Of a stretch of DNA of 64,000 bases, positions 8,563 to 61,333 are shown in pieces. Both the position numbers and the translations under genes were made by a program. The stretch's first letter is position 1, and each line of letters begins with the position of its first letter. Origin of the DNA: an uncultured Hyphomicrobiales bacterium (lineage in GTDB: Bacteria; Bacteroidota; Ignavibacteria; Kapaibacteriales; Kapaibacteriaceae); assembly GCA_964467455.1 (NCBI GenBank), contig CAYXQJ010000017.1:6520-70519 (forward strand). The letters run 5' to 3'. The notes beneath the pieces are model-generated. The model was not told the origin of the DNA and made no database searches. It was given only the letters and a program-made list of their open reading frames with translations.

Positions 8563-8729
8563 ATGTACGAGGCTGGCCCAACAACGAGTCAAGCCAGTTC
8601 GCGCCGTGGCGCACGCAACACGCACAAATGCCCACGGCCCTAAACACTGTTCCAAAAGCCCTGATGCGGTGGGGCAGGGACCGCACCAGGGGGCCGGCCG
8701 GTTTGGGGCAGCCGGTTTATCGTTTAAGG

Positions 8730-8802
8730 AGCTAGCTGCGGGACTCGAACTCGCAACCTGCCGATTACAGATCGGCCGCTCTACCAATTGAGCTACGCTA
8801 GC
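8730..8802 (-). tRNA. tRNA-Thr(UGU)-like gene with atypical features
   Basis: Hand-folded cloverleaf: acceptor GCTAGCG/AGCTAGC, D arm GCTC-AATTGGTA-GAGC, anticodon arm GCCGA-TCTGTAA-TCGGC, variable loop AGGTT, T arm GCGAG-TTCGAGT-CCCGC. Irregularities are C at position 33, a G7.A66 mismatch and an A52.C62 mismatch. No encoded CCA. Confidence 0.55.
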
Positions 8803-8896: not shown

Positions 8897-9343
8897 TCAA
8901 TTCGCTGTCGGCAGGGCATTGGCAACTCCCATGAGTGCCTTCCATGCCCTGTCGAGATCCTTCATCAAACTGTTCAGGGGCTCGCCTGCGAGATACCTAC
9001 GGCATACCTCAGCAGCAACGTCCACCTGCTTTGCATTCAATCTTGGAATCGCCACCATCGAGACAGGCCGTTCGCCGACATACAAATGATCCGGCCGAAC
9101 GCAGCATCGATTGCCGCAGGATCCTCGCACTCGCTCGCCACCCGGTGGGAACGAGCCATGCTCTAGGAACCAGGCAACGCGCTTAACTCGATACGTGTGA
9201 TTCCCAATCCAAATAACACCGCCTCGATCACGCTTTGCTCGAACGTTCTTCCACTCCCAGCAGCCATTTGGATCGGGCGATTTAACGACACGACACCAAA
9301 AGCTGTCGGGCTGAATGTCGAGCGCAGGGGTAGCGCTCACCAT
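8897..9343 (-). CDS. HNH homing-type endonuclease (HNH_3-like)
   Basis: CWEWKN...VIWIGNHTYRVKRVAWFLEHG...GSCGNRCCVRPDHLYVG is the typical phage HNH_3 pattern. ATG at 9343-9341 with GGAGG 7 nt upstream. Confidence 0.8.
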   Translation of the reverse strand: MVSATPALDIQPDSFWCRVVKSPDPNGCWEWKNVRAKRDRGGVIWIGNHTYRVKRVAWFLEHGSFPPGGERVRGSCGNRCCVRPDHLYVGERPVSMVAIPRLNAKQVDVAAEVCRRYLAGEPLNSLMKDLDRAWKALMGVANALPTAN

Positions 9344-9516: not shown

Positions 9517-9726
9517 TCAATCACCTTTTTTAGAATTTGCTGGAGGTCGTCCAGGACGCCTTTTTTTGGCCTTAAAGTCAGCCACGTCATTGCGATGGAA
9601 CAGCAGTACCGTCCCAATGAGGTGTCCTGCAAGGCGATTTTCTTTGCGGAATTGATGTACCCTCATCGGCGTGACCTTGAGTGCTTTGGCCACCTCTGCC
9701 GTCGTCAGGTATTCTCCGATCGCCAT
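9517..9726 (-). CDS. helix-turn-helix DNA-binding protein, excisionase/AlpA-like
   Basis: ATG at 9726-9724 with AGGAG 7 nt upstream. YLTTAEVAKALKVTPMRVHQFRKENRL...LFHRNDVADF fits Xis/MerR-type HTH proteins. Basic tail. Lies close to the integrase. Confidence 0.65.
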   Translation of the reverse strand: MAIGEYLTTAEVAKALKVTPMRVHQFRKENRLAGHLIGTVLLFHRNDVADFKAKKRRPGRPPANSKKGD

Positions 9727-9928
9727 GCTCATGCTCCTAACTATACTTGCAGACATAGATTTTTCAACGTAAAACATGGCGGTCCTGTGCCGGCGACTAG
9801 CGAAGAAGCCGTGTGGCCCTTGCGGAAACCACGAACCGCCAATCTTAAAATGGCAGCTTGCAGATTTTGCACGGCCCAGACGAACCGGGTGCGACTCACG
9901 TACGACACCAATCTGCGAGCTGCCGATT

Positions 9929-10153: not shown

Positions 10154-10226
10154 GTCGAAGTCCTTCGGGATGTAGATCGCCCTCGGCGGTGCAGCCTCAC
10201 CGTCGAGGGTTCTGTTTACAAAAGAG

Positions 10227-10287
10227 CGGAGGGCATGGGATTCGAACCCACAACCCCTTGCGGGGCACCTGATTTCGAGACAGATGT
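10227..10287 (-). other. 3' portion of a class II tRNA-Ser(CGA): putative att core
   Basis: Minus strand reads anticodon arm TCTGT-CTCGAAA-TCAGG, variable arm CCCC-GCAA-GGGG, T arm GTGGG-TTCGAAT-CCCAT, acceptor 3' strand GCCCTCC and discriminator G. The matching 5' strand GGAGGGC and a Ser-type D arm are absent upstream. Confidence 0.65.
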
Positions 10288-10424: not shown

Positions 10425-11312
10425 ATGCTGCTTGAGAAATTGATCGAGACCTACATCGCTAGCAGGAACGAAGAGAGGCCGATCGGCCAGGAATTAGCCG
10501 CGAGAACGCAGTTGCATTTGGCAGACTGTGTGCGCGCCTATGGTGCCTGGCTACAGCACGAAGCTGTTTTGACCGACCTTAATCCATTATCAGTAAACGA
10601 CTTTCTTCGCTGGCTTATAGAAGCCGGTCAGTCGCCATACACAGCCCGCAATAGACGATCAGGGCTGCTGGTCCTGTGGCGATTTGCCGAAAGGTCTGGC
10701 CTTACAGACGAACAATCAACCCGCGTGCGTAGGGTGCATTGCCCCACCTTGCAGGTCGATGGATACGCCATCGATCAGGCCCAGGTATTGCTCTCGCGTG
10801 CCTCTGAACTGCGCGGCACGATTCGTTACACGAAGATCCCTCGGCGCATCTACTGGGGCTCACTTCTCCCGACCAAATGGGACTTTGGGTTGCGTGCGGG
10901 AGATGTCTTGGGTGTTCGTGTCGTAGACTTCAACCCAGACGGGCAATTGTGGGTCTACGAGCACAAGACGGGAAAAAGAGGCTGGAGAATACTTCGGCCT
11001 GAAACGCGCGATGCGATCGCCGAGTGTGTCGCGGTTTCACCGAATCGTGAATTCATTTGGCCTGGCTTGCGACCCAGAAGCTTCTATCGTGCGTTCTCAC
11101 GCCTCGCCAAGGCGTCTGGCCTTCCAGGCACCTCGCGCTGGGTGCGCCGTGGGTCATCATCAGAAGTTGAGAAACTTCACCCCGGCGCGGGCTGGAGATT
11201 CCTGAATCACTCCAATCCAGACGTGTTCGAAAAGCATTACAGGGTAAGGAGGATCTGCGACAGCAACCCCCTGCTCCCGCCATCCATCAGGCGGGAATCT
11301 CACGGCGACTAA
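10425..11312 (+). CDS. int: tyrosine recombinase / phage integrase
   Basis: GLRAGDVLGVRVVDF (Arg I), HKTGKRGWRIL, SRWVRRGSSSE (Arg II region) and LNHSNPDVFEKHY (His and the Tyr nucleophile). Confidence 0.85.
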   Translation: MLLEKLIETYIASRNEERPIGQELAARTQLHLADCVRAYGAWLQHEAVLTDLNPLSVNDFLRWLIEAGQSPYTARNRRSGLLVLWRFAERSGLTDEQSTRVRRVHCPTLQVDGYAIDQAQVLLSRASELRGTIRYTKIPRRIYWGSLLPTKWDFGLRAGDVLGVRVVDFNPDGQLWVYEHKTGKRGWRILRPETRDAIAECVAVSPNREFIWPGLRPRSFYRAFSRLAKASGLPGTSRWVRRGSSSEVEKLHPGAGWRFLNHSNPDVFEKHYRVRRICDSNPLLPPSIRRESHGD

Positions 11313-35003: not shown

Positions 35004-36863
35004 CTATCGCACTCCTGCCAGGCTACTGCCGCTGCGGTTCTGCGGGCCGAGGCCGACGTAACTGCGGCCGTTCATGCCGCGATGCTTCTCGCGTTTCTCG
35101 CGGAGCGCACGAAGCGCCCACGTTTCAGTCGCTTCGGGTCGCGGCTGCTCGTGGTATTCGGGCTTGTCGAGCGCGAGGTATCGCATGTTGTCGAGCAAGT
35201 GATCGTTCCGCTTCACCGGCTTGTCGGTGACGAAATCCTTCTCGCGCTTGTAGGAGTATTTGCGGAACTCGTCCTCGAGTGCCGGGCACTTCTCGCGCAT
35301 CACACGCAGTCGCGGCACACCACGCTCGTTGATGCGGAGCAGGTGCCGCACGGCCTCGATGCCAGCATTCACGTCGTCTTGCCCCCACTGGTAGCCGTGG
35401 CCGGTGAGTGTGCTGCGGATGCCCCGCTTTTTCAGCGCCTCGCCATACTGATATTCGACGGTGAGGCCGGTACCCATCTCGGCAACCTTGCCCATATGGC
35501 CGTCGATCAGGAACTTGTAGAACTGCATGCCGTCGGCTTTGCGAAGTACGTTGTCGCCGTACTTGTTCGCGTCGCAGTTTCGCAGGTAGAGTTCGTCGTA
35601 AATGAAGATTTCGCCGAGTTTGGCGTAGTCGTCGTCTTCCGGTGGCAAGGCAGCGAACAGCACAGCGCACACCTGCCGGCCGGGATCGGTAATCATGTAT
35701 CGCGTCCAGTTGCGCGGAACCTCGAACCAGTCGATCCCGTGGATCCGCATGTCGAATTCCGGGTAGACGCGGAAGCCGAGGATCGCCGGCTTGCCGTGAA
35801 CACGGACTTCGCGCTCTTCTTCCGAGAGCTTGTCAGCGAAGATCTTCTTCTGCTCGTCGCTGATGTACGGGTTGTCAGCCAGCAGGAAGTCGAACCGCTG
35901 GATGCGCGGATTCTCGACACCCGACTCGAGCAGTTCATCGGCGTCGGCCAGCAAGTCGTAGAACTCTTGCGTGCCGATCTGGGGAGTAGCAGACCAGAGC
36001 AGGCGGCCCTCGCGATCGAGGAGGCGGGCCGACATTTCGGGATACCACTCGTTGTTGATGATTTCTTCGTCGAACAAGACGAGATCGACATCGACACCGT
36101 TCGGCGGAATGCCTTCGCTCGTGTTGAAGACAATCTCCCAGCCGTTCTTCAACGTCACCTTCGAGGGCGATCCCTCCTTCTTGTTATTCCAGGCAATCCC
36201 CTTCCACCCACCCTGAATAAACCGTGCAGGAATAAGTGGCGGTGCTGGCTTTCGTTCATTCTTGCGATGCGAGTCCGTCCACGGGCGGTAGGTGCGCCAC
36301 ATGCCGGTCGTTTCATCACGGATGATCCAGAACGCCCCGGCCTTGAACAACTTGCGGAAGGCAACTTCGGCCACCTCCTTGCCCGTCTTGCCGATGACGA
36401 AGCAGCGGCCGTTCTCTTTCGGGTATTTGTCGAACGGATCCTGCCCGGTGACGGCTCGAGCCACTTCGACGCAGGTGGTAAGCGTCTTGGCCGATCGATT
36501 CGAACCGACGGCCAGGCACTCCGGTGCCCGCGAGGCGTGAAACTCGGCGGCCCGCGGCAGCGGTTCATAAAGCTTGAGCGATTCGATCGCCCGTTTCGCC
36601 AGTTCGCGTGCGGCCTTCACGAATCGCCGCAGTTGGTAGGCAGATGGCGGTGGCTTGGGAATGGAACCGGGCAGTGCGGCGGGGATCGCTGACTGCACCA
36701 ATGCGGCAGCCTGGCTGTCGGCAGACGGAACCTGCTCGCGAGGGGGAGGCAGAACGTGCTCCTTCGGCGGCTGATTCGGCGGCACGGCCTGAGCGGCGGC
36801 GCGTAGATTCTGCGCCGGCGTTCGCCGTTTGCCGAAGTTCAGGCTGCCGTCGAATGGTGGCAC
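35004..36863 (-). CDS. terL: terminase large subunit
   Basis: Walker A-like GSNRSAKT, Walker B VDLVLFDEE, and an RNase H-like nuclease half (MITDPGRQVCAVLFAA). GTG start sharing one nt with the TerS stop (TAGTG). Confidence 0.85.
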   Translation of the reverse strand: MPPFDGSLNFGKRRTPAQNLRAAAQAVPPNQPPKEHVLPPPREQVPSADSQAAALVQSAIPAALPGSIPKPPPSAYQLRRFVKAARELAKRAIESLKLYEPLPRAAEFHASRAPECLAVGSNRSAKTLTTCVEVARAVTGQDPFDKYPKENGRCFVIGKTGKEVAEVAFRKLFKAGAFWIIRDETTGMWRTYRPWTDSHRKNERKPAPPLIPARFIQGGWKGIAWNNKKEGSPSKVTLKNGWEIVFNTSEGIPPNGVDVDLVLFDEEIINNEWYPEMSARLLDREGRLLWSATPQIGTQEFYDLLADADELLESGVENPRIQRFDFLLADNPYISDEQKKIFADKLSEEEREVRVHGKPAILGFRVYPEFDMRIHGIDWFEVPRNWTRYMITDPGRQVCAVLFAALPPEDDDYAKLGEIFIYDELYLRNCDANKYGDNVLRKADGMQFYKFLIDGHMGKVAEMGTGLTVEYQYGEALKKRGIRSTLTGHGYQWGQDDVNAGIEAVRHLLRINERGVPRLRVMREKCPALEDEFRKYSYKREKDFVTDKPVKRNDHLLDNMRYLALDKPEYHEQPRPEATETWALRALREKREKHRGMNGRSYVGLGPQNRSGSSLAGVR

Positions 36864-40079: not shown

Positions 40080-41201
40080 CTAGGTGGCGTAGTTCTCGAG
40101 CTTGCCCTGGAATCGTGGGTTGGCCTTGAGGTTGCCGTAGAAGTCGATCGACATGCGATACGACTGGCTGCCCGGATCGAAATCGGGGCCCTCGGCAACG
40201 AACAACTGCTTCTGCCACGAGAGCAACTGCAGGTGGTCGATGTTGATGCCGTAACCGGTGTTGGCCGGCATGCCGTATTCGCTGGTGATCTCGGCACCGT
40301 CGAAGTTGACGGTATCGCTGAAACCGAAGCTCATCAGCGAACCGGTCGGCGAGCCCTGCTTCGACAGGAACCGCTCGTTGTCGTCGAGCAAGTTCAGGAA
40401 GTCGATGTACAGGGACTTCTCGAGCATGACGAGATCCATCATGCCCTTCTTGGTTTTGTTGCGGTGCGAGTATTGCAACAGGAAGCGAACCGCCTCCTTG
40501 CCCGTCACACCGAAGGTGTCGCCCGAGGCCGCCCAGCCATCGCTGGACCAGTTCACCAGCAGCGGCGACCACGAATCGTAGGACTGATCGACGCTCGCGA
40601 CACCGTTCGGGAAGCTACCCGTCCACGTGCCGCCGAGGCCGCCGAGTGCGGTGGACAAACCGGCGTAGGTGGCGCTGGGAGCAGCCACCAAATCGGCGGC
40701 AGTTGCGGAACGCTCGGCACCCGTCGAGATATTGATCGTGTTGCCGGCATCGGCCAGGAAACTCTCGAAGCCGTGAATTCGCTTCGAGTTTCCGGTGGCA
40801 TTGCCGTCGATGTACATTTCATCGCAGAAGGCGTCTTCGAAGTCTTCCCGCTGCGTGTCGGCGAGTTCGGAGAAGAACTTGACGATCGCCTCCGTGCCCT
40901 TGTTCATCAGCCGCTCTTTCTTGGTGGCCGATTCGCCCGCGATGTAGCCGCGGATGTCGAGTTCGGCAACCTTCCAGCGGTTGCGGCGAGGGAAGGCGAG
41001 CGTGTCGGCATCGCCAAAGCCCATGAGCGGGGCACGCTTGTAGCGCACACGCCAGTCGATGCCCTTGCCGGTGCATCCGTACTTCACACGGCCGCGCCCC
41101 TGCAACAATGCAGTGAGCTTGCGGTTGCGCATGATGTTGGCTTCTTCATCGCGCAGATGATTGTTGATCGTCGTGTTTGTTACACGTGTCCACTCAGCCA
41201 T
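40080..41201 (-). CDS. major capsid protein (373 aa)
   Basis: Size and position after the scaffold-like gene. GGAG upstream of the ATG. The sequence pattern is typical of HK97-fold capsids as I recall them. Not verified. Confidence 0.7.
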   Translation of the reverse strand: MAEWTRVTNTTINNHLRDEEANIMRNRKLTALLQGRGRVKYGCTGKGIDWRVRYKRAPLMGFGDADTLAFPRRNRWKVAELDIRGYIAGESATKKERLMNKGTEAIVKFFSELADTQREDFEDAFCDEMYIDGNATGNSKRIHGFESFLADAGNTINISTGAERSATAADLVAAPSATYAGLSTALGGLGGTWTGSFPNGVASVDQSYDSWSPLLVNWSSDGWAASGDTFGVTGKEAVRFLLQYSHRNKTKKGMMDLVMLEKSLYIDFLNLLDDNERFLSKQGSPTGSLMSFGFSDTVNFDGAEITSEYGMPANTGYGINIDHLQLLSWQKQLFVAEGPDFDPGSQSYRMSIDFYGNLKANPRFQGKLENYAT

Positions 41202-41234: not shown

Positions 41235-42527
41235 TTAATAGTCCTTGAAAGTTCCGTCGCCGATCCCGGTCGAAGCGAAAGCGTGTCGCAGCTTTTCTTC
41301 GAGCGAGGCGCTGGGGTTCTGCGATGGAACGGAGCCTGGACGAGGGGGAGCGGGAGCCAAGGTGCCACCGGCATCGGGCGTGTAGCCCGCCGCGCGTCGA
41401 ATGAACTCGGCATCGGCCGCATGGCCGTTCGAGTGCTGACTTAGCGCGGGTGCTGGCGGCGGAACGGCGGGGGCTGTCGCTGGCCCTTGTCCGCCGGTGT
41501 TCGGGGCATACTGACCGAGTTGTGCGCGGCGGGATTCGATCCAACGCTGCGCGACTTCTCGCTGCAAGCCTGTGGGGAGACCCTGATCGGTGAGGGCCTT
41601 GATGTACTGTGCGAGCTGCTCGCCTTCCGCGCTGCGCACCGGGGCGCGAGTCTGCGGATCGTAGATCACCTGGCCCTGCTGATTTCGAATGAACAGCAAG
41701 TCGGCATTTTGCTCAAGAAAAGCCGCCGTTCTCTGCGATTCGCTGACGTTGCCATACGCCCGCTGCACCTGCTGGAGCACCGCCTGTTCGATCTCGGCAC
41801 GCTGCTGCTCGAGCGGCGACTGCGAGACGAAGCGGTTGATGAAGGCGGCGGGATCGTTGAGGAAAGACTTGAGCTGATCGTTTTCCCACTTCTGCCGACG
41901 CTTGATGTCTTGCACCACCGTCGGAGAAGCGCCGGGCAACGGAATCAGCCGGCCTTGCTCGTCGCGCGTGACTTCGTTCAGCCAACCGTCATCCCACGGC
42001 GGGGCTTGCCACTCCGGCTTCGCGGGCGCCGCTGGGGCACCACCGGCCGGCGCACTCGCGGGAGCCATCTGCTCCTGCTGGCGACGGGCAATGAATTCTT
42101 CAAATTCGCGGGCATTTTGTAGGTACCGTTGGCCATATTCGGCCATCTGCCGCTGCTGATCCGCGACTCGAGCATGCGACACGATGGCCGCAAACGCTTC
42201 GTTCGGATCCGCGTACCGACTGAGATCGATACCGTGCTGCTTCGCCGCGTCGTGAATCGACCAAGGAGCAGGGGCGGCGGGCGAAGCTGGAGCACCGCCG
42301 ACGGCAGTACCCCCGGACGGTGTTTCTGCGCCCGCCGCGCCGGCGCCTGAATCGCCGCTGTCGTCCCAGCCCTCGCGATCAAGCGTCAGGCCAGGGCTAG
42401 AATAGTCGGATGCCGATACGGATGGCGTGGAAGGAGGCGCAGAAACTGCAGGAGTCGTAGCCGAAACCGGCGGCGCAGCGCCAGCATCGGGTGCAGCCTG
42501 GCCAACATTGTTCAGTTCATCCGCCAT
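41235..42527 (-). CDS. putative scaffolding protein
   Basis: Upstream of the capsid gene. Disordered Ala/Pro/Ser N-terminus followed by helical Q/E/R-rich regions. ATG at 42527 chosen (MADELNN). The tracked ORF starts at the TTG at 42575. Confidence 0.5.
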   Translation of the reverse strand: MADELNNVGQAAPDAGAAPPVSATTPAVSAPPSTPSVSASDYSSPGLTLDREGWDDSGDSGAGAAGAETPSGGTAVGGAPASPAAPAPWSIHDAAKQHGIDLSRYADPNEAFAAIVSHARVADQQRQMAEYGQRYLQNAREFEEFIARRQQEQMAPASAPAGGAPAAPAKPEWQAPPWDDGWLNEVTRDEQGRLIPLPGASPTVVQDIKRRQKWENDQLKSFLNDPAAFINRFVSQSPLEQQRAEIEQAVLQQVQRAYGNVSESQRTAAFLEQNADLLFIRNQQGQVIYDPQTRAPVRSAEGEQLAQYIKALTDQGLPTGLQREVAQRWIESRRAQLGQYAPNTGGQGPATAPAVPPPAPALSQHSNGHAADAEFIRRAAGYTPDAGGTLAPAPPRPGSVPSQNPSASLEEKLRHAFASTGIGDGTFKDY

Positions 42528-42733
42528 CGTCACTGGGCTCGAGATGATTCGCGTGAATTCAGCGCGATCGCTCAACGCCCGACGATTCTATCCCCGCAGG
42601 TGTCCCAAAAATAATCGACTTCGCAAACGTACAATCCAACTCACTCGCAATCTCACCCGATCGCGACCGCCGCTGCCGATGCTCGCTTCCGCCGTGCCTC
42701 ACTCCACGGCGCAAAATCGGCAGCCTTCCCGAC

Positions 42734-42780
42734 ACGGACTCGGTTGTGCCCCTCGACGCAGCCGAGTCCGTTCTTTTTGC
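42734..42780 (+). terminator. plus-strand Rho-independent terminator in the divergent control region
   Basis: 10-bp stem ACGGACTCGG (42734-42743) / CCGAGTCCGT (42762-42771) followed by TCTTTTTGC. No annotated plus-strand gene lies upstream. Confidence 0.5.
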
Positions 42781-42857
42781 GCGACGCCGCCAACAAATTC
42801 GCGCGATCCTCACGCAAGAATCTCGCACCCCATGCGTAGAAAAACTACGCTGATGCC

Positions 42858-43457
42858 ATGGCACCATCGTCGCGTCGAAAACTGCAGCAGATGAAGGCTC
42901 GAGCCAAGATGCTCAGCCGCGCCGGACTATGCCGATCGTGTGCGATAAACCCAGTCGCACTCGGCAGCCGCAGATGCACCAACTGCCTCGAGAAAGAACG
43001 CGAACGCTCGCTCGAGCGGTACCGCGAACTACACCCCAACGCGAATCGCGTCCCCAGGGAGCCAAAAAATCGACCTGCCCCACCACCCAAACCCGTGCCG
43101 CGCGAAAAGCTCGCCACACCTCAGCCACAGCCCGCCGCAGACACCACCGAAGATCTCATCCCCAACCCCGACATCCCGCCCGGCGCCCGCGTCATCGCCG
43201 AATTCCACTGCCCACTATTTCCACTCCCCAACTACTGCACCTTCGTCGATCAGCCACTCCCGCCCGAAATCGCCAACGCCATCGCCAATCGACACACCAC
43301 ACCCCCCGACACCGACCCAGAAACCCCCGAAGCCTACCGCGGCACCGGACTCGAGCTCCACGGCCCCGCACTCGCCGAATACCGCCGCATCCGAGCCATG
43401 CACGCGGCGGGGATCTTCGACGTGACGTCACCCGAGGCAGAAGCGTTCAAAATCTAA
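42858..43457 (+). CDS. zinc-ribbon protein with a Pro-rich C-terminal half (199 aa)
   Basis: CRSC-x13-CTNC near the N-terminus. Strongly C-ending codons. First plus-strand gene after the divergent region. Confidence 0.55.
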   Translation: MAPSSRRKLQQMKARAKMLSRAGLCRSCAINPVALGSRRCTNCLEKERERSLERYRELHPNANRVPREPKNRPAPPPKPVPREKLATPQPQPAADTTEDLIPNPDIPPGARVIAEFHCPLFPLPNYCTFVDQPLPPEIANAIANRHTTPPDTDPETPEAYRGTGLELHGPALAEYRRIRAMHAAGIFDVTSPEAEAFKI

Positions 43458-43501
43458 CTGTTCTGCCCAGCGCGTACCCCGCGCCAATACCGCGCGGCAT
43501 C

Positions 43502-43697
43502 GGGTAACACAGATTACCTTCGAGGTTACCGTTTTTGGTTACCGGCATTCGCCGAACCCCAGCCACACCAACCACTTCGCCACGGCAACCGGTTGCCGCC
43601 GATGTTACCTTTCGTGTTACCTTTCGCACAGTTCGCACGCACGCCCCGCACGCCCCATATCACACCCAACAAGCCAGCCGTGTAGTTTCAAACTACA
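43502..43697. promoter_or_regulatory. array of GTTACC half-sites and palindromes
   Basis: GGGTAAC 43502, GATTACC 43512, GGTTACC 43524 and 43537, palindrome GGCAACCGGTTGCC 43584-43597, tandem TGTTACCTTTCG x2 43603-43626, palindrome TGTAGTTTcAAACTACA 43681-43697. Confidence 0.6.
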
Positions 43698-43828
43698 TTT
43701 TCAGCTACCCCCCCCGCCCGAGCCAGCCGCAGGCTACTTGCCCCCAAGCCCGCCGCAGGCGTACCATCACCCCTGCCAAGGCAAGCTAATTTCCAGACCA
43801 CGCCCCCCCACAGTGCGACGAGAACAAC

Positions 43829-44134
43829 ATGGCCAAGAAAAAGAAGGCAACACCAGGCAAGCAAAAGAGCCGGGACTACCAATACTTCGATATGTGGCAC
43901 AAAGAGCCACGCAAACTGCTCGAAGAAATCGATGGCATGAAGTCGATCCTCACCACCTACGCCGAGGAACTAGCCAACGAAGGCGACTACCGCATGGCAA
44001 TGGCACTCGCAGTCACCAGCAGCCTCGCAACAATCGTCTACATCTTGGCACTAAAACAACTTCCACTCGAAAGCGAACTCAGCGACGAAGAAATCAGGGA
44101 CACCATCACAAGGGTTGAGCAACTGGCCAGTTAA
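43829..44134 (+). CDS. hypothetical protein (101 aa)
   Basis: ATG ORF with a Lys-rich N-terminus and a helical remainder. Weak SD. Confidence 0.5.
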   Translation: MAKKKKATPGKQKSRDYQYFDMWHKEPRKLLEEIDGMKSILTTYAEELANEGDYRMAMALAVTSSLATIVYILALKQLPLESELSDEEIRDTITRVEQLAS

Positions 44135-44340
44135 GACCGCCCAGGTTAACAGCGATTTGGGTCAAAAATTCCAGCCGCCGCACAAATACCCATAACGCGG
44201 GCTCGCGGGGCCGCCACCCTACCCCCTCCCCCCGTCCGCCTAACTGCCGACCATTGCCCAGCTTACGGTTGTCCTCGATTTCGTCAGCAACTACCGTGCC
44301 ACTGCCAGCCGTCAGGCATGCGTACCCAGCCCGAGGCGAT

Positions 44341-44380
44341 TTTTTGACTCATCAAAATTGCATTTTTGACTCATCAAAAT
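44341..44380. promoter_or_regulatory. two identical 18-bp palindromic operator-like sites
   Basis: TTTTTGACTCATCAAAAT at 44341-44358 and 44363-44380 (22-bp period). Each contains TTTTGA-ctca-TCAAAA and a TTGACT hexamer. Confidence 0.6.
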
Positions 44381-44426
44381 CTCATCACAACCTATTACCC
44401 CTCATACACTTGCAAGGTTTCAGCAT

Positions 44427-44600
44427 AGTGGTGGGGGCTGGTGTGGAATTGTGGGGGAATAGTGGTGGGGCAGGGGGAGAATAGGGGGCTGGTGCGGTGG
44501 TGGTGTGCGGTGTGGTGTGGCTGGCATCATGCCAGTGGTGGGGCAGTGGTGGGCTGGTGGGCTGGCAGTGAGCTCGGCTGGCTGGCTGGCAGTGGTGGGG
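44427..44600 (+). repeat. G-rich decamer repeats with G-quadruplex potential
   Basis: AGTGGTGGG(G/C) at 44427, 44461, 44534, 44545 and 44591. G4-5 runs at 44433, 44453, 44467, 44473 and 44484. Palindrome CTGGCATcATGCCAG at 44521-44535. Confidence 0.8.
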
Positions 44601-44631
44601 CTGGAATTGAATCGGAATAGGTCACGAATAG
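44457..44631. repeat. GAATAG iteron-like hexamers (4 copies)
   Basis: GAATAG at 44457, 44479, 44615 and 44626. Spacings of 22 and 11 bp within the pairs. Confidence 0.7.
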
Positions 44632-44651
44632 CAGTGATGGGAGATCGGATT

Positions 44652-44909
44652 ATGGGTGGTGGTGGGAAGCGTAGGCGGGTTGTGAAAGCGCGCAGGGGGT
44701 TGGCGGCAATGCCGGCCGAGCGGTTGGCGGAAGTGGCACGGGCTGGCGGGCTGGCTGCGGCGGCAAGCTTGGGTGAGCTCGGCCGGCAGGAGCGGGCGCG
44801 CGCAGGCGGGCTGGCAATTGCTGGTCGGCCGCGGCGGCCGGGCGGCGGGCGGCCGAAGGGGAGTAGGAATAAGGTGAAGCCGGACGAGCTCGATCAGGCT
44901 AGCGAGTAG
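44652..44909 (+). CDS. small basic protein with AT-hook-like GRP motifs (85 aa)
   Basis: ATG at 44652 with GGAG 8 nt upstream (alternative ATG at 44637). GGGGKRRRVVKARR...GRPRRPGGGRPKGSRNK. The upstream part of tracked ORF 44505.. is the G-rich repeat. Confidence 0.5.
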   Translation: MGGGGKRRRVVKARRGLAAMPAERLAEVARAGGLAAAASLGELGRQERARAGGLAIAGRPRRPGGGRPKGSRNKVKPDELDQASE

Positions 44910-44917
44910 CTGGCAGT

Positions 44918-45034
44918 CTATTCGGGGGCTGTTGGTGGGCTATTCCGGGCCCGTTGGCTGGGCTGGCGGGAAAGAATTTTGGGAGTATTTGAGTGCTGTT
45001 TTTAGGCTATTCGGTGGCTATTCTTGGCCTATTC
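44918..45034. repeat. CTATTC iteron-like hexamers (5 copies), inverse orientation to the GAATAG set
   Basis: CTATTC at 44918, 44940, 45007, 45018 and 45029. The last three have an exact 11-bp period (GGCTATTCGGT GGCTATTCTTG GCCTATTCTGA). Confidence 0.75.
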
Positions 45035-45142
45035 TGAAAATATAAGCTTGCAATGGGGACGGACGGACGATAGATTTTCGGTGTGGGCTGGCGAGCACTA
45101 CCGCCGGCCGAGAAGTAGCACTAGAGAATGGGAGATTGGACA

Positions 45143-45388
45143 ATGGCCAAGAATATTGAATTCGCTTGGCGGTACGAACAATGGCAGCGCGATTGTTTGG
45201 ATGAGTACAACGAAAGATTCTGCGAAAATCGGGAATACTGTGAACCGCCCGAGCATGATGTAGACCCAGGCCTGATTGTCGAATTCGGTGAAGACGGGTC
45301 CGCCTATCCGCACGGCATTGGTGGCACAAGCCATATTCCCGATGCCGTGAAGCCATGGCGAGAATCAGAGTGGTTTGTAGCACGGTAA
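45143..45388 (+). CDS. hypothetical protein (81 aa)
   Basis: ATG at 45143, 6 nt after GGGAGAT (MAKNIEFAWRYEQW). Confidence 0.55.
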   Translation: MAKNIEFAWRYEQWQRDCLDEYNERFCENREYCEPPEHDVDPGLIVEFGEDGSAYPHGIGGTSHIPDAVKPWRESEWFVAR

Positions 45389-45401
45389 CGCGCACCGATC
45401 T

Positions 45402-45432
45402 AAGCGCCGTTGGGGTTGCGGCGCTTTGTTCG
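45402..45432 (+). terminator. Rho-independent-type terminator
   Basis: 8-bp stem AAGCGCCG (45402-45409) / CGGCGCTT (45419-45426) followed by TGTTCGG. Confidence 0.5.
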
Positions 45433-45505
45433 GTATGCGTTTACGATCGATCGACGGATTTAGGCGCGCATCACTACTCGCGCCGCCACTATGGGAGATC
45501 AGACA

Positions 45506-46156
45506 ATGGCCAGTTTGTTCGAGCGGTATCGGCCGCGCGTATGGGGTGATGTAGTTGGGCAGGACAAAGCGGTGGGGATTGTTGAGAGATTGCGCGGTGG
45601 GGCTGGGCTGGGTGGCCGAGCGTTTTGGCTGGCTGGGCCCAGTGGCACGGGGAAGACCACGATTGCGAAGCTGATTGCGGCCGAGCTGGCGGACGATTAT
45701 GCGACGGAGGAAATCGTCGGGCGCGATGTTTGCGCTGCGGATTTTGCGCGATGGGCGCGGCAATTTAGGATTCGGCCGATCGGCGATAAGGCGGGCTGGG
45801 CGATTGTCGTTAATGAAGCGCACGGTGTGCGCAGGGATTGTATTGAGAGATTTTTAGACTTGCTGGAAACATTGCCGCCATTTGTGGTGTTTGTCTTCAC
45901 GACGACGAATGATGGGGCTGACCGGTTATTCGACGAACAAGCTGACGCGCCGGCTTTCGCTAGTCGGTGTGTCAGTTTGCCGATGGCGCGCCGAGATCTG
46001 GCGAAAGCTTTCGCCGAGCGCGCCCGGGAGATCGCGCAGGCGGAAGGATTGGACGGCCAGCCCGTGGAAGCTTACGTAAAGCTTGCGCAGAAGTATAAGA
46101 ATAACTTCCGCGCAATGCTGGGGGAGATTGAAAACGGCGGAATGCTGCCGGATTAG
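45506..46156 (+). CDS. AAA+ ATPase, clamp-loader (RFC small subunit / DNA polymerase III gamma-tau) like
   Basis: LFERYRPRVWGDVVGQ, Walker A GPSGTGKTT, Walker B IVVNEAH, and the SRC motif (FASRCVSL) typical of clamp loaders. ATG at 45506, 6 nt after GGGAGAT. Confidence 0.75.
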   Translation: MASLFERYRPRVWGDVVGQDKAVGIVERLRGGAGLGGRAFWLAGPSGTGKTTIAKLIAAELADDYATEEIVGRDVCAADFARWARQFRIRPIGDKAGWAIVVNEAHGVRRDCIERFLDLLETLPPFVVFVFTTTNDGADRLFDEQADAPAFASRCVSLPMARRDLAKAFAERAREIAQAEGLDGQPVEAYVKLAQKYKNNFRAMLGEIENGGMLPD

Positions 46157-46285
46157 GTAGGGAATAGGGCCCGATTGTGCGCCGCGGGGTGGTAGCGCGG
46201 CGCCATGTCGGTTCCTATTGGGGTGGACAATTGCGGGCCGCGCGCGTCACTACCGCGCCGGGCCGCCACTATGGGAGATCAGACA

Positions 46286-47574: not shown

Positions 47575-47757
47575 ATGCGATTGACGATCACGATGGACCT
47601 GGACAATGCCGCGTTTGAGGATGGAGGCGGCCAGGAAATCACGCGGATATTGACAGACCTATGCCGCAAATTGCCCGACGAAATCTGCGAAGGCAATCGG
47701 GCACTGTTCGACATCAACGGCAACCGCGTAGGCACGGCCGAGATCGTCCAAGGCTAA
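47575..47757 (+). CDS. hypothetical protein (60 aa)
   Basis: ATG at 47575, 6 nt after GGGAGAT (MRLTITMDLDNAAFEDGGGQEITRIL). Confidence 0.5.
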   Translation: MRLTITMDLDNAAFEDGGGQEITRILTDLCRKLPDEICEGNRALFDINGNRVGTAEIVQG

Positions 47758-47761
47758 CGCG

Positions 47762-47801
47762 ATCCCGCGGAGGGCCGCCACGGTGGCCCCGAGCATGGGT
47801 T
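47762..47801 (+). terminator. conserved post-gene hairpin element, copy 1
   Basis: ATCCCGCGGAGGGCCGCCA..GGCCCCGAGCATGG directly after the stop, followed by GGTTTCGTTTTGC. A second copy is at 49251. Confidence 0.45.
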
Positions 47802-47835
47802 TCGTTTTGCTGAGCACTACCAAAGGGAGAACACG

Positions 47836-48912: not shown

Positions 48913-49245
48913 ATGAACACGAACACGACGAGCGAGGCGAGCGCCGCCACTACGCCGATAACGATAACCGGCAGGGCGCTGACACCCTACGCGCTGCCGA
49001 TGGTGCACCTCGGCGGGACTTCGCGGGGCCGACTGATTCAACAACGAACGATGGCCGCCCATGCCGTCGAAATGGCCGCCAAGGCCGTTGAAATGACCGC
49101 ACCACTGCTGAAAGACTTTGTTTTATATGAAGACGCTACGGCCCGGCTGGAAGTGGCCAGGATCGCCACGGCGGCGCGATTGAACACGCTGGGCGAGATC
49201 GCACGGCAGTTGATGGCCGAGGCCGAGGCAATCGAGAAGCAGTAA
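48913..49245 (+). CDS. hypothetical protein (110 aa)
   Basis: ATG at 48913, 7 nt after GGGAGAT. Double CACTAC box upstream. Confidence 0.55.
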   Translation: MNTNTTSEASAATTPITITGRALTPYALPMVHLGGTSRGRLIQQRTMAAHAVEMAAKAVEMTAPLLKDFVLYEDATARLEVARIATAARLNTLGEIARQLMAEAEAIEKQ

Positions 49246-49250
49246 ACCCC

Positions 49251-49290
49251 ATCCCGCGGAGGGCCGCCAAGCGGCCCCGAGCATGGATTG
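49251..49290 (+). terminator. conserved post-gene hairpin element, copy 2
   Basis: ATCCCGCGGAGGGCCGCCAAGCGGCCCCGAGCATGG. Perfect stem GGGCCGC / GCGGCCC. Confidence 0.45.
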
Positions 49291-49344
49291 GGTTGACACA
49301 GCCCCGGTGTTCAGGGGCAGGACGCTTTAGACTGGGAGATTGAC

Positions 49345-58015: not shown

Positions 58016-58498
58016 CCCAGGGCCTCCAAAATGCCCAGCATCGCGAGGGCATCGTGCCCGGGTGGCTTCCGTGAGGAGTCGGCCGGCTTCTATTACACTG
58101 CCGGCGACCATGAAATAAGGACTTAAGTTCTGTTTTACAAGGCATTACACCCGACTGTAATGATGCAAGTGGTTTGATGGTATCAACTTGCGTCAAAAAA
58201 TGGCCCCTCATTACACCTTACAGTTCCAGAGAGGCATATATATATACCCCCCTCCCCATACTGACATTTGTTCACCTACTGTACTGATGTACTAATGGGG
58301 GAACTTGTCTATATATGTGTGTTCTCTGTAATAGTGTAATACCTACTACTACTTACTTACTTACTACTTACTACTTACTACTAACTACTACTACTACTAC
58401 TACTTATATCTACTGCCATCGCCACAAGTCGGATTACAAAGATGCGCAATGGTGGTGTAATGGGGTGTAATCGGAAGACAGGAGGCATGGGCAGTCAG
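58016..58498. promoter_or_regulatory. AT-rich repeat-rich intergenic region (candidate origin and/or promoter region)
   Basis: CATTACACC at 58143 and 58209, facing GGTGTAAT(G/C) at 58454 and 58464 and GTGTAAT at 58334. ATATATATATA at about 58236. Microsatellite at 58343-58406. Confidence 0.55.
58343..58406. repeat. (TAC)n/(TACT)n microsatellite
   Basis: ctactactacttacttacttactacttactacttactactaactactactactactactta. Confidence 0.9.
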
Positions 58499-61285: not shown

Positions 61286-61333
61286 GACGACTTTCTGGTT
61301 TCAGGTGGTGGTGCCCAGGGTGGTGTTCATCGA

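What the first reader, a model, noticed from the sequence alone, without database searches (positions are those of the whole stretch)
44341..44640. Abrupt strand-composition switch with palindromic operators followed by a G-quadruplex-prone repeat block
The plus strand is conspicuously G-poor and C-rich from about 42.6 to 44.25 kb, in coding and non-coding sequence alike. It becomes extremely G-rich from about 44.40 to 44.95 kb.

At the switch sit two identical 18-bp palindromic sites, TTTTTGACTCATCAAAAT, 22 bp apart. Immediately downstream are five G4-5 runs within 56 nt (44433, 44453, 44467, 44473, 44484), which fits a canonical G4 motif. There are also five copies of AGTGGTGGG(G/C) and the palindrome CTGGCATcATGCCAG.

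A promoter or operator followed by a G-rich non-template strand is the arrangement that favours stable R-loops used for replication priming (ColE1-type, mitochondrial CSB-type). It could alternatively be a structured non-coding RNA. The local C-to-G skew flip has the polarity expected at an origin.
Basis: partly seen in the sequence, partly recalled or inferred. Interest (0 to 1): 0.65.

Follow-up and report, generated by a model that had tools for sequence, protein, structure and literature searches.

The report
Phage control region with strand-composition flip
A non-coding stretch of an uncultured Planctomycetota-type phage, where the DNA flips abruptly from C-rich to G-rich around two identical palindromes, is real and shared with a related phage, and it looks more like a hub for switching genes on than a proven replication origin.

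Summary
Two identical 18-bp dyad sites lie at 44341 and 44363. The largest GC-skew jump in the 64 kb is at 44410 (0.90). The strongest G-quadruplex scores on each strand lie either side of an AT-rich core.

A related contig (L072) has the same C-rich, AT-rich, G-rich layout. The bias is strongest at synonymous codon positions of real + strand genes, so it acts on the nucleic acid rather than the protein.

New findings:
- 11 GAAT(A/T)G hexamers, spaced 11 or 22 bp apart, bracket an 85-aa gene whose protein has an AT-hook-like tail.
- The same arrays lie upstream of sigma-70-like promoters of the clamp-loader operon in relatives.
- One perfect sigma-54 -24/-12 element (44286-44301, - strand) points left, with the dyads about 75 and 97 bp upstream.

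My best reading is a transcription control node, possibly driving transcription in both directions.

The R-loop origin idea is neither supported nor excluded. The global skew minimum is at 10.2 kb. A more classical origin-like site lies at 58.1-58.5 kb.

Neighbouring proteins have almost no homologues, and function remains an inference.

The parts
42580..44335 (.). C+A-rich island on the + strand (A .25, C .38, G .22, T .15). It covers two + strand genes and three spacers.
   Evidence: GC3 skew is -0.49 in zf199 and -0.33 in p101. L072 shows the same pattern.
42734..42771 (+). Conserved 13-bp-stem hairpin followed by a T run, in the gap between the scaffold-like gene (-) and zf199 (+).
   Evidence: The stem is identical in L072 while the loop varies.
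42858..43457 (+). zf199: a CxxC...CxxC zinc-ribbon protein, and a real gene despite lying on the C-rich strand.
   Evidence: One homologue, P0006. 100 of 178 aligned residues are identical. Weak match to phrog_19644, a DNA-binding protein family.
43503..43621 (.). GGTAAC-N3-GATTACC dyad plus four further GTTACC copies.
   Evidence: L072 has the dyad GGTAACAGTGTTACC at the same place.
43829..44134 (+). p101: an ORFan with a predicted helical bundle, replaced by an unrelated ORF in L072.
44155..44235 (.). Conserved non-coding block (TCAAAAATTCCAGCCGCCGcACAAATACCCATAA...GGGGCCGCC...CCCCCTCCCC). It includes an inverted GGAATT site and a copy of the TTTTTGAC half-site.
   Evidence: Alignment score z = 28 against shuffles. 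Inverted repeats I8, I13 and I21.
44208..44249 (-). G-run cluster on the - strand (C runs on the + strand). This is the strongest negative G4Hunter score in the window, -2.36.
44286..44301 (-). Perfect sigma-54-type -24/-12 element TGGCACGGTAGTTGCT. The predicted leftward start is near 44275.
   Evidence: It is the only hit in the window with 0 or 1 mismatch, against 0.04 expected. It is not conserved in L072.
44338..44425 (.). AT-rich core (65% AT in a roughly 60% GC genome). Both GC skew and AT skew flip here.
44341..44358 (.). Dyad site 1, TTTTTGACTCATCAAAAT.
44363..44380 (.). Dyad site 2, identical to site 1 and 22 bp from it start to start. A third half-repeat, CTCATCACAA, follows at 44381-44390.
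44433..44488 (+). G4-5 run cluster that overlaps array A of GAAT(T/A)G hexamers (44446, 44457, 44479). G4Hunter is 2.40, the window maximum.
44489..44602 (+). Patchwork of short tandem G/T-rich units (GGTGGTGTG, CAGTGGTGGGG, TGGTGGGC, GGCT). It holds the hairpin 44521-44535 and an E. coli-type Chi octamer GCTGGTGG at 44551.
   Evidence: The order of sub-blocks is shared with L072 (z = 5.5).
44604..44631 (+). Array B: GAATTG, GAATAG and GAATAG at 11-bp spacing.
44637..44658 (+). Start-associated motif ATGGGAGAT..GA..ATGG (a Shine-Dalgarno sequence plus start codon), one of four copies.
   Evidence: Repeat family D1.
44652..44909 (+). p85: a basic ORFan with KGG-like repeats and an AT-hook-like tail, RPRRPGGGRPKGSRNK.
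44918..45034 (-). Arrays C and D: CTATTC at 44918, 44940, 45007, 45018 and 45029, in the opposite orientation to arrays A and B.
   Evidence: Nine of the window's 35 copies fall in 601 bp (Poisson p = 7e-12).
45048..45076 (+). Sigma-70-like promoter candidate TTGCAA-N17-TAGATT, for the p81 and clamp-loader operon.
   Evidence: Read. The -10 region is conserved in L075. Equivalent promoters lie downstream of CTATTC arrays in L006 and L077.
45506..46156 (+). Clamp-loader-like AAA+ ATPase, used as the anchor for finding relatives.

Best explanation
The region is a lineage-conserved, non-coding transcription control node. It sits at the head of the rightward early and replication gene block of a probably temperate, Planctomycetota-type phage.

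Proposed mechanism:
- The two identical dyads bind a dimeric regulator on one face of the DNA helix.
- They act as an enhancer or operator, centred about 75 and 97 bp upstream of a leftward sigma-54-type promoter (44286-44301, - strand).
- The transcript from that promoter would be G-rich and would run antisense through p101 and zf199 towards the structural genes on the - strand.
- To the right, a G-rich, C-poor leader carries phased AAT(A/T) patches (GAATAG arrays A and B, inverted arrays C and D). These bracket p85 and lie just upstream of the sigma-70-like promoter of the clamp-loader operon.
- These arrays are docking sites for an architectural or activator protein. The AT-hook-bearing p85 is the obvious candidate.

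The skew flip would then mark the point from which transcripts, or single-stranded exposure, leave in both directions.

Shown by the data:
- the sequence features and their statistics;
- their conservation in relatives;
- the association of the arrays with promoters in relatives.

Inferred only:
- which proteins bind;
- whether the sigma-54 element fires;
- whether there is leftward transcription;
- what causes the skew.
For: - The dyads are unique, identical and 22 bp apart.
- The sigma-54 consensus is matched at 12 of 12 positions. It is the only hit in the window with 0 or 1 mismatch, against 0.04 expected.
- The distance from dyads to promoter fits the usual spacing between an enhancer and a sigma-54 promoter (from my own knowledge).
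- Sigma-54-like elements with at most one mismatch number 9 in the family against 3.5 expected. Two of them, in L005 and L006, lie on the - strand about 750 bp upstream of the clamp loader.
- A planctomycete encodes rpoN and enhancer-binding proteins (PMC2754498).
- GAATAG/CTATTC hexamers cluster strongly: 9 in 601 bp, p = 7e-12, with spacings of 11, 22, 11, 11, 22, 11 and 11 bp.
- Pairs of AATAG/CTATT 11 bp apart number 16 across all fetched sequences against 0.45 expected, or about 9 once identical contigs are discounted.
- Such arrays lie upstream of TTGACA-N18-TATAAT in L006, TTGACC-N17-TATAGT in L077 and TTGCAA-N17-TAGATT in the window.
- L072 shares the same order of blocks (z = 5 to 28), while the ORFs between the blocks are swapped.
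- Synonymous-site skew is -0.49 and -0.33 on the left against +0.59 on the right, and L072 shows -0.46 and -0.62.
- The p85 tail matches only the HMGA AT-hook among all PDB sequences.
Against: - No sigma-70 promoter reaches 9 of 12 matches in the AT-rich core.
- The sigma-54 element and the exact dyad sequence are absent from L072.
- No enhancer-binding protein or helix-turn-helix repressor gene was found nearby.
- The host is unknown.
- The - strand has no ORF for 1.7 kb, so a leftward transcript would need a very long leader.
- In L005 and L006, long + strand genes also have C-rich third codon positions. Strong strand bias in this family therefore does not always follow transcription direction.
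- The AT-hook match is not statistically significant (E = 1.2).
- Only one relative covers the core.
Confidence: 0.45

Rival explanations
1. Replication origin. The AT-rich core unwinds, and G-rich transcripts leaving it form stable R-loops or G4 hybrids that prime leading-strand synthesis, as at ColE1, T4 oriF and the mitochondrial CSBII. Alternatively, the phased repeats act as iterons for an unrecognised initiator.
For: - The keto-rich strand runs outward on both sides of the core.
- There is a deep local minimum of cumulative skew at 44409.
- The window's top G4Hunter scores on each strand flank the core, +2.40 and -2.36.
- Potential G4 motifs are conserved in L072.
- The site lies next to the replication-type gene block.
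- The arrays flank a small basic-protein gene, much as iteron arrays flank repA in phage P1 (from my own knowledge).
Against: - The global skew minimum is at 10166 and the maximum at 61325.
- The strong asymmetry covers only about 0.7 to 1.7 kb.
- There are no DnaA boxes.
- No initiator gene is recognisable, and p85 is only 85 aa.
- There are only two dyads.
- No rightward promoter matches the consensus.
- A more classical candidate lies at 58092-58471: six GTGTAAT in inverted sets around (TA)n and (TACT)n repeats, next to the primase gene, with the second-largest skew jump.
- G-rich blocks are absent upstream of the clamp loader in 26 other relatives.
Confidence: 0.2
2. Largely neutral low-complexity spacer at a mosaic junction. 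Slippage produces short G/T-rich tandem units, and the conserved flanks serve as recombination boundaries for swapping gene cassettes. On this view the skew is a mutational by-product without a dedicated function.
For: - The block is a patchwork of units repeated 2 to 4 times, with periods of 4, 8, 11 and 12 bp.
- ORFs between conserved spacers are swapped in L072 and L075.
- Five short contigs end or start between 44356 and about 45063, as expected where an assembly graph branches or where repeats occur.
Against: - The order of sub-blocks and the 11-bp phased motif are conserved above compositional expectation (z = 5.5).
- The same motif arrays recur upstream of promoters in distant relatives.
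- The bias is strongest at synonymous sites and is kept in a relative whose protein is only about 55% identical.
Confidence: 0.12
3. Packaging site or physical end of the genome (cos- or pac-like). Cutting would occur at the centre of the dyad array, and the phased repeats would bind terminase, as at lambda cosN and cosB.
For: - Logan contig L071 ends at 44363.
- L074, from a different sample, starts at 44356.
- The 8-nt overlap, AATTGCAT, sits exactly at the centre of TCAAAA-TTGCAT-TTTTGA.
- Phased repeats lie next to a symmetric site.
Against: - This rests on only two low-coverage contigs from different runs.
- L072 reads through its equivalent AT-rich element.
- The terminase gene is 8 kb away on the other strand.
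- The source contig spans the site.
- Resection from such ends would give the opposite skew polarity (my own inference).
Confidence: 0.08
4. Structured non-coding RNA or long regulatory 5' leader. The C-rich segment 44160-44335 would pair with the G-rich segment 44430-44610, or an RNA G-quadruplex would control p85 translation.
For: - The minimum-energy fold pairs the two segments.
- There are complementary 11-12-mers, CCACTGCCAGCC and GGCTGGCAGTGG (I14 and I22).
- A strong Shine-Dalgarno sequence lies right after the block.
Against: - The folding energy is not better than that of shuffled sequence (z = -1.6 on the + strand, -0.5 on the - strand).
- There is no Rfam match even at E <= 1.
- Covariation cannot be assessed with two low-complexity sequences.
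Confidence: 0.07
5. Centromere-like partition or plasmid-maintenance site. Arrays of 11-bp-phased hexamers would be bound by a small protein, as at R1 parC with ParR or with omega and ParG.
For: Eleven phased hexamers in direct and inverted sets flank a small basic-protein gene.
Against: - No ParA or ParM-type ATPase was found nearby.
- The phage shows hints of an integration module rather than a plasmid lifestyle: a tRNA-like fragment and an HTH_17 excisionase-like gene.
- In relatives the arrays are associated with promoters.
Confidence: 0.04

Closest known systems
Sigma-54 promoters with upstream enhancer sites for AAA+ activators (for example glnAp2 with NtrC, or nifH with NifA)
   Same: There is a perfect TGGCACG-N4-TTGCW element. 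Two identical dyad sites lie two helical turns apart, about 75 and 97 bp upstream.
   Different: No activator gene was found. The element is not conserved in the one close relative. Sigma-54 promoters that drive phage genes are rarely described, and the host is unknown.
Lambda-type operator arrays (OR1-OR3) at an early promoter
   Same: There are repeated dyad-symmetric sites of about 17-18 bp with helical phasing, at the start of the early and replication genes of a probably temperate phage.
   Different: No overlapping sigma-70 promoter was detected. There is no divergent repressor gene, no second operator set in the 64 kb, and only two sites.
R-loop-primed origins (ColE1 RNA II, T4 oriF and ori34, mitochondrial CSBII)
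   Same: An AT-rich element is followed by a strongly G-rich non-template strand with G4 potential, and the skew polarity is as at an origin.
   Different: There is no demonstrated promoter. The arrangement is symmetric, with G-rich strands on both sides. It is not the global skew minimum. Nothing shows replication starting here.
Phased short-repeat arrays bound by small proteins (R1 parC with ParR; omega heptads; P1 incC and incA iterons flanking repA)
   Same: Hexamer units at 11 or 22-bp spacing, in direct and inverted sets, flank a small gene.
   Different: The units are A/T patches set in G-rich spacers. The candidate binder has an AT-hook-like tail rather than a ribbon-helix-helix fold. 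No partition ATPase or Rep protein is present.
HMGA-type AT-hook architectural proteins (HMGA1; Myxococcus CarD)
   Same: The p85 tail RPRRPGGGRPKGSRNK resembles HMGA1 AT-hook 2 (PKRPRGRPKGSKNK). The arrays offer AAT(A/T) cores, which AT-hooks prefer (from my own knowledge).
   Different: The match is short and not significant (E = 1.2). The rest of p85 consists of KGG-like repeats. Binding is untested.
Start-associated sequences of cluster K mycobacteriophages
   Same: A conserved motif containing the ribosome-binding site, ATGGGAGAT..GAC.ATGG, precedes four consecutive early genes.
   Different: The sequence and the host group are different, and this motif is only a side feature of the locus.

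Membership tests
R-loop-primed origin (ColE1, T4 oriF type) | A promoter firing into the G-rich segment | tested here: not met
   No sigma-70-like site with at least 9 of 12 matches on the + strand in 44300-44450. Other promoter types are not excluded.
R-loop-primed origin (ColE1, T4 oriF type) | G-rich non-template strand or G clusters downstream of the start | tested here: met
   G is 54% and C 11% in 44425-44610. G4Hunter is 2.40, the window maximum.
R-loop-primed origin (ColE1, T4 oriF type) | The site coincides with the start of replication (genome-wide skew extreme or nascent strands) | tested here: inconclusive
   There is a local cumulative-skew minimum at 44409 (-290), but the global minimum is at 10166 (-374). 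About 7 kb of the 71-kb contig was not seen. Nascent-strand data cannot be obtained here.
Iteron-type origin (lambda ori, P1 oriR) | Three or more direct iterons of 17-22 bp next to an AT-rich unwinding element | tested here: not met
   There are only two 18-bp sites. The other repeats are hexamers. The AT-rich core is 88 bp at 65% AT.
Iteron-type origin (lambda ori, P1 oriR) | An initiator gene overlapping or adjacent to the site | tested here: not met
   p85, p81, p101 and zf199 have no Rep or initiator family hits.
Iteron-type origin (lambda ori, P1 oriR) | DnaA boxes | tested here: not met
   There are four hits with at most one mismatch in 64 kb, none within 10 kb of the site, at chance level.
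CI/Cro-type operator-promoter | Repeated dyad-symmetric sites with helical phasing | tested here: met
   Two identical sites, 22 bp start to start.
CI/Cro-type operator-promoter | Sites overlap a sigma-70 promoter, with an adjacent helix-turn-helix repressor gene | tested here: not met
   No promoter was detected. No helix-turn-helix protein was found nearby. The only HTH found is the HTH_17 protein at 9517-9777.
Sigma-54 promoter with enhancer | -24 GG and -12 GC elements within TGGCACG-N4-TTGCW | tested here: met
   12 of 12 positions match at 44286-44301 on the - strand, against 0.04 expected per window.
Sigma-54 promoter with enhancer | Activator-binding dyads roughly 70-200 bp upstream | tested here: met
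   The dyad centres lie about 75 and 97 bp upstream of the predicted start near 44275 (coordinates). This shows geometry only, not binding.
Sigma-54 promoter with enhancer | The host has RpoN, and an enhancer-binding AAA+ activator is available | tested here: inconclusive
   Rhodopirellula baltica has rpoN and enhancer-binding proteins (PMC2754498). The host of this phage is unknown. No Sigma54_activat domain appears in the scanned phage proteins.
Sigma-54 promoter with enhancer | Conservation in relatives | tested here: not met
   It is absent at the homologous place in L072. The family shows only mild enrichment, 9 against 3.5.
Canonical G-quadruplex motif | Four runs of at least three G with loops of 1-7 nt | tested here: not met
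   None in the window. The best has loops of 9, 2 and 6 nt at 44453-44488. L072 has two canonical motifs in the homologous block.
cos or pac site | Physical DNA ends at the site | tested here: inconclusive
   Contig L071 ends at 44363 and L074 starts at 44356. Read data are not available.
AT-hook protein (p85) | A GRP core flanked by basic residues | tested here: inconclusive
   GRPRRPGGGRPKGSRNK can be read directly from the sequence. The only PDB sequence hit is the HMG-I/Y AT-hook 2EZD, at E = 1.2. There is no Pfam hit.

The most novel reading that the evidence does not exclude
The AT-rich core is a bidirectional start site whose outgoing G-rich transcripts form long-lived R-loops or G4 hybrids on both sides. 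It would be set up by a sigma-54-type enhancer and by a phage-encoded HMGA-like AT-hook protein bound to phased A/T patches between the G runs.

The R-loops would either prime replication or leave the extreme, conserved mutational footprint seen at synonymous sites. That would make this a bacterial-virus counterpart of R-loop-forming, GC-skewed CpG-island promoters and of the mitochondrial CSB origin.
Probability: 0.12. Interest if true: 0.8.

Novelty: new variant of a known kind. Interest (0 to 1): 0.5.

Why it matters
- Planctomycetota phages are almost unstudied, and nothing is known about how they control early and late genes or start replication.
- This locus offers concrete cis-elements to test: the dyads, a sigma-54 element, the phased A/T patches, and an AT-hook-like protein.
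- The local strand asymmetry is extreme (skew -0.5 to +0.6). It lies at synonymous sites of real genes and is kept in a diverged relative. That asymmetry needs an explanation: R-loop-linked deamination, avoidance of Rho termination in long untranslated leaders, or replication.
- If sigma-54 really drives phage genes here, that would be an unusual regulatory strategy for a phage.

Tried and rejected
- DNA similarity to 50,697 phage records: no match.
- Rfam at gathering and at E-value thresholds: only the tRNA.
- Folding of 44135-44655 on both strands: not better than shuffles.
- Homologue searches:
  - p101 finds only itself.
  - p85 finds only itself plus weak KGG-repeat hits.
  - zf199 has a single homologue.
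  - Neither p101 nor p85 finds a relative in the viral contig collection.
- A conserved non-coding block used as a DNA pattern in the viral collection: no match.
- Seventy clamp-loader and capsid loci from viral, metagenome and genome collections:
  - None shares the small ORFs.
  - None of the 26 checked has a comparable G-rich block.
- L010, upstream of the capsid gene: not syntenic.
- AlphaFold model of p101: a generic helical bundle (pLDDT 76), with no fold match at E <= 0.001.
- PDB sequence searches for zf199, p101 and p85: uninformative.
- DnaA boxes: at chance level.
- Motifs checked by eye only, each judged not to fit:
  - an IHF site;
  - an ECF-type GGAAT-N18-GTT promoter;
  - a leftward sigma-70 promoter in the AT-rich core;
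  - hix-like invertase sites;
  - a Chi role for the G-rich repeats, whose orientation is wrong if the genome ends were at 44360.
- Coding potential of the G-rich block: rejected. Three different frames are needed on the + strand, and there is no - strand ORF.
- Literature search for Planctomycetes phage termini: nothing useful.
Full report
**Context**

The window is phage DNA of about 60% GC.
- Structural genes lie on the - strand from 11.6 to 42.6 kb. They include the large terminase (35004-36863), the major capsid protein (40080-41201) and a scaffold-like gene (41235-42575).
- A block of small + strand genes runs from 42.86 to 53 kb. It includes a clamp-loader-like AAA+ ATPase (45506-46156) and a serine recombinase.
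- Replication genes lie at both ends: a RecD2-like helicase, a PolB-type exonuclease and a primase.
- Relatives of the clamp loader come mainly from Planctomycetota genome bins (Pirellulaceae, Planctomycetaceae, Gemmataceae, Phycisphaerae), at no more than 67% identity.
- The source contig is 71,258 bp long.
- No record in the phage collection is similar at the DNA level.

**Observation**

- The two TTTTTGACTCATCAAAAT sites lie at 44341 and 44363. They are unique in the window even with three mismatches allowed.
- The five G runs, the five AGTGGTGGG(G/C) copies and the CTGGCATCATGCCAG hairpin are all confirmed.

Two details need correcting.
- The 22 bp is the period, not the gap.
- Each site is only partly palindromic: 6-bp arms around a non-symmetric CTCA.

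The composition switch is exceptional.
- No 200-bp window outside 42.4-45.2 kb exceeds |0.40| in GC skew. Inside that range the values run from -0.52 to +0.60.
- The jump at 44410 (0.90) is the largest in the window, and the next is 0.54.
- AT skew flips as well. The + strand is C+A-rich on the left (A .25, C .38, G .22, T .15). It is G+T-rich on the right (G .54, T .23).
- The G+T-rich strand therefore always runs 5'->3' away from an 88-bp core of 65% AT at 44338-44425.
- G4Hunter gives its window maximum (+2.40, 44430-44500) and minimum (-2.36, 44208-44249) on either side of this core.
- A strict G3N1-7 motif is absent; one loop is 9 nt long.
- An independent assembly reproduces 44356-46263 exactly.

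**The asymmetry is real, acts on the nucleic acid, and is conserved**

- zf199 (42858-43457) has one homologue, P0006. 100 of 178 aligned residues are identical, including both CxxC pairs. It is therefore a genuine + strand gene.
- Its third-codon-position GC skew is nevertheless -0.49. For p101 it is -0.33, and for p85, on the other side of the core, +0.59.
- The contig carrying P0006 (L072, 2.3 kb) is syntenic. In order, it carries:
  - the N-terminus of the scaffold-like gene;
  - the same 13-bp-stem hairpin;
  - the zf gene (GC3 skew -0.46);
  - an unrelated second ORF (GC3 skew -0.62);
  - a conserved non-coding block;
  - an AT-rich element;
  - a G-rich repeat block, in which the contig ends.
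- Local alignment scores exceed those of dinucleotide-preserving shuffles for all three parts:
  - the block after the second ORF, z = 28;
  - the AT-rich element, z = 5.1;
  - the G-rich block, z = 5.5.
- The AT-rich elements differ in their repeats. L072 has TCATTTTACC and TCATTTTGCC, 27 bp apart.
- The ORF just upstream also differs between the two phages. That would fit the ORF and the sites being exchanged together, but two sequences are too few to say.
- The G-rich block is specific to this lineage. None of the 26 other clamp-loader loci checked has one.

**New anatomy**

*Phased hexamer arrays*
- GAAT(A/T)G hexamers lie at 44446, 44457 and 44479 (array A) and at 44604, 44615 and 44626 (array B).
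- Inverted CTATTC copies lie at 44918 and 44940 (array C) and at 45007, 45018 and 45029 (array D).
- Nine exact copies fall in 601 bp, against 0.33 expected from the window's 35 copies (Poisson p = 7e-12). Spacings within the arrays are 11 or 22 bp.
- The arrays bracket the p85 gene.
- The motif and its 11-bp phasing recur in L072, as the run GGAATGGGCCG, GGAATAGGGCG, CTATTAGTGGT.
- The phasing also recurs more widely. Pairs of AATAG/CTATT 11 bp apart number 16 across all fetched sequences against 0.45 expected, or about 9 once identical contigs are discounted.
- In L006 the CTATTCC and AATTCC sites lie upstream of a consensus TTGACA-N18-TATAAT promoter in front of the clamp-loader gene.
- In L077 three CTATT(C/T) copies at 11-bp spacing lie upstream of TTGACC-N17-TATAGT.
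- In the window, array D is followed 13 nt later by TTGCAA-N17-TAGATT (45048-45076). The -10 region of that candidate promoter is conserved in L075.
- The arrays are therefore part of promoter architecture in this phage family.

*A sigma-54-type element*
- A perfect sigma-54 consensus, TGGCACGGTAGTTGCT, lies on the - strand at 44286-44301. It is the only hit in the window with 0 or 1 mismatch, against 0.04 expected.
- It points left, with a predicted start near 44275.
- That places the two dyads about 75 and 97 bp upstream, which is the usual spacing for enhancer sites (from my own knowledge).
- A leftward transcript would be G-rich. It would run antisense through p101 and zf199 towards the structural operon.
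- Planctomycetes do have sigma-54 and enhancer-binding proteins: Rhodopirellula baltica has rpoN, RB6491, and Studholme and Dixon described its enhancer-binding proteins (cited in PMC2754498).
- The element is not conserved in L072.
- Across the family, hits with at most one mismatch number 9 against 3.5 expected. Two of them, in L005 and L006, lie on the - strand about 750 bp upstream of the clamp loader.

*The p85 protein*
- p85 has no real homologues.
- It carries KGG-like repeats.
- Its tail, RPRRPGGGRPKGSRNK, has a single PDB sequence match, the HMGA1 AT-hook 2EZD (PKRPRGRPKGSKNK). At E = 1.2 this is suggestive only.
- AT-hooks prefer AA(T/A)T (from my own knowledge), which is the core of the phased hexamers.

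**Interpretation**

The best-supported reading is a transcription control node: enhancer- or operator-type dyads, a leftward sigma-54-type promoter, and phased architectural sites around p85 that lead into the sigma-70-like promoter of the clamp-loader operon.

The skew flip would then mark divergent transcription or divergent single-strand exposure. Two causes are possible:
- a mutational one, deamination of the non-template strand;
- a selective one, because C-poor and G-rich untranslated leaders escape Rho termination.

Neither can be shown from sequence.

Points against this reading:
- No sigma-70 promoter is detected in the core.
- No activator or repressor gene was found nearby.
- The sigma-54 element is missing in L072.
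- In L005 and L006, long + strand genes have C-rich third positions (down to -0.66). Strand bias in this family is therefore not always tied to transcription direction.

Several results count against an origin here:
- The global cumulative-skew minimum is at 10166. That is next to a tRNA-like fragment and an excisionase-like HTH gene. The maximum is at 61325, and 44409 is only a deep local minimum.
- There are no DnaA boxes and no recognisable initiator gene.
- A more classical origin-like site lies at 58092-58471. It has six GTGTAAT copies, three on each strand, around (TA)n and (TACT)n repeats. It lies next to the primase gene and has the second-largest skew jump.

I keep the origin reading as the main rival, at 0.2.

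**Other rivals**

- *Genome terminus.* Contig L071 ends at 44363, and L074, from another sample, starts at 44356. The 8-nt overlap sits at the exact centre of the dyad array. This could mark a physical end. It rests on two low-coverage contigs, and L072 reads through its equivalent element. Branching of the assembly graph at a mosaic junction is a simpler cause, given the swapped ORFs.
- *Structured RNA.* This is not supported.
- *Neutral slippage-generated spacer.* This fits the short tandem units. It does not fit the conserved order of sub-blocks or the family-wide motif arrays.

**Verdict**

The feature is real and statistically exceptional.

Its kind, a phage regulatory intergenic hub, is known. 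The combination is unusual: extreme bidirectional keto skew at synonymous sites, G4-prone flanks, a sigma-54 consensus with enhancer-like dyads, and A/T-patch arrays next to a gene for an AT-hook-like protein.

Function remains an inference, because nearly all local proteins lack homologues and only one relative covers the core.

Noticed in passing
window 58092-58471: AT-rich spacer next to the 3' end of the primase gene. It holds six of the window's seven GTGTAAT copies (three on the - strand, then three on the + strand) around (TA)n and a TACT-type microsatellite. It has the second-largest skew jump (0.54 at 58430) and the lowest GC in the window. It looks like a classical origin.
   Followed up: partly
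window 10200-10270, with 9517-9777 (-), 10425-11312 (+) and 8728-8802 (-): A tRNA 3'-half-like fragment (ggagggcatgggattcgaaccc...) that ARAGORN does not call. It lies between an HTH_17 excisionase-like gene and a 295-aa ORF with no Pfam hit that might be a recombinase. An intact tRNA-Thr is 1.4 kb away. This may be an attP and integration module, and the global cumulative GC-skew minimum (10166) falls here.
   Followed up: partly
window 44209, 46261, 46550, 47773, 50365, 50555, 51311, 52819, 54314 (+ strand): GGCCGCCAC occurs 11 times against 1.65 expected. Nine copies are on the + strand in the early region, often inside GC hairpins or just before the start-associated motif.
   Followed up: partly
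window 44637, 45128, 45491, 46271: A conserved motif containing the ribosome-binding site, ATGGGAGAT(C/T)nGA(C/T)(A/T)ATGG, precedes four consecutive early genes. The copies at 45479 and 46259 extend to 32 nt at 97% identity. It resembles the start-associated sequences of mycobacteriophages.
   Followed up: partly
window 43503-43621; L072 1327-1343: A GGTAAC-N3-G(A)TTACC dyad lies directly after the zf199 stop codon and is conserved in L072. The window has four extra GTTACC copies, two of them in a perfect 12-bp tandem repeat, TGTTACCTTTCG. This is probably a second set of protein-binding sites.
   Followed up: partly
window 43739-43795; L072 1440-1502: A conserved non-coding block lies upstream of the second ORF, which is not itself conserved. 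It contains a plausible TTGCCC-N18-TACCAT promoter. The ORF between the conserved spacers has been swapped between the two phages.
   Followed up: partly
L005 and L006, whole loci (about 12 kb each): In these relatives the strand that encodes the clamp loader is C-rich throughout (200-bp skew down to -0.46). Third-position skew reaches -0.66 in a 503-aa + strand ORF. Strong genome-scale strand bias that does not follow gene direction exists in this phage family.
   Followed up: partly
window 47756-47806 and 49245-49294: A repeated element of about 50 nt, containing the hairpin GGGCCGCCAcGGTGGCCC, follows two early genes. It may be a shared terminator or another regulatory element.
   Followed up: no
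window 8897-9343 (-): An HNH_3 endonuclease gene lies beside the tRNA-Thr.
   Followed up: no
window 44551-44558: An exact E. coli-type Chi octamer, GCTGGTGG, lies inside the G-rich block, with near copies at 44437 and 44488. Its relevance in a planctomycete host is unknown.
   Followed up: no
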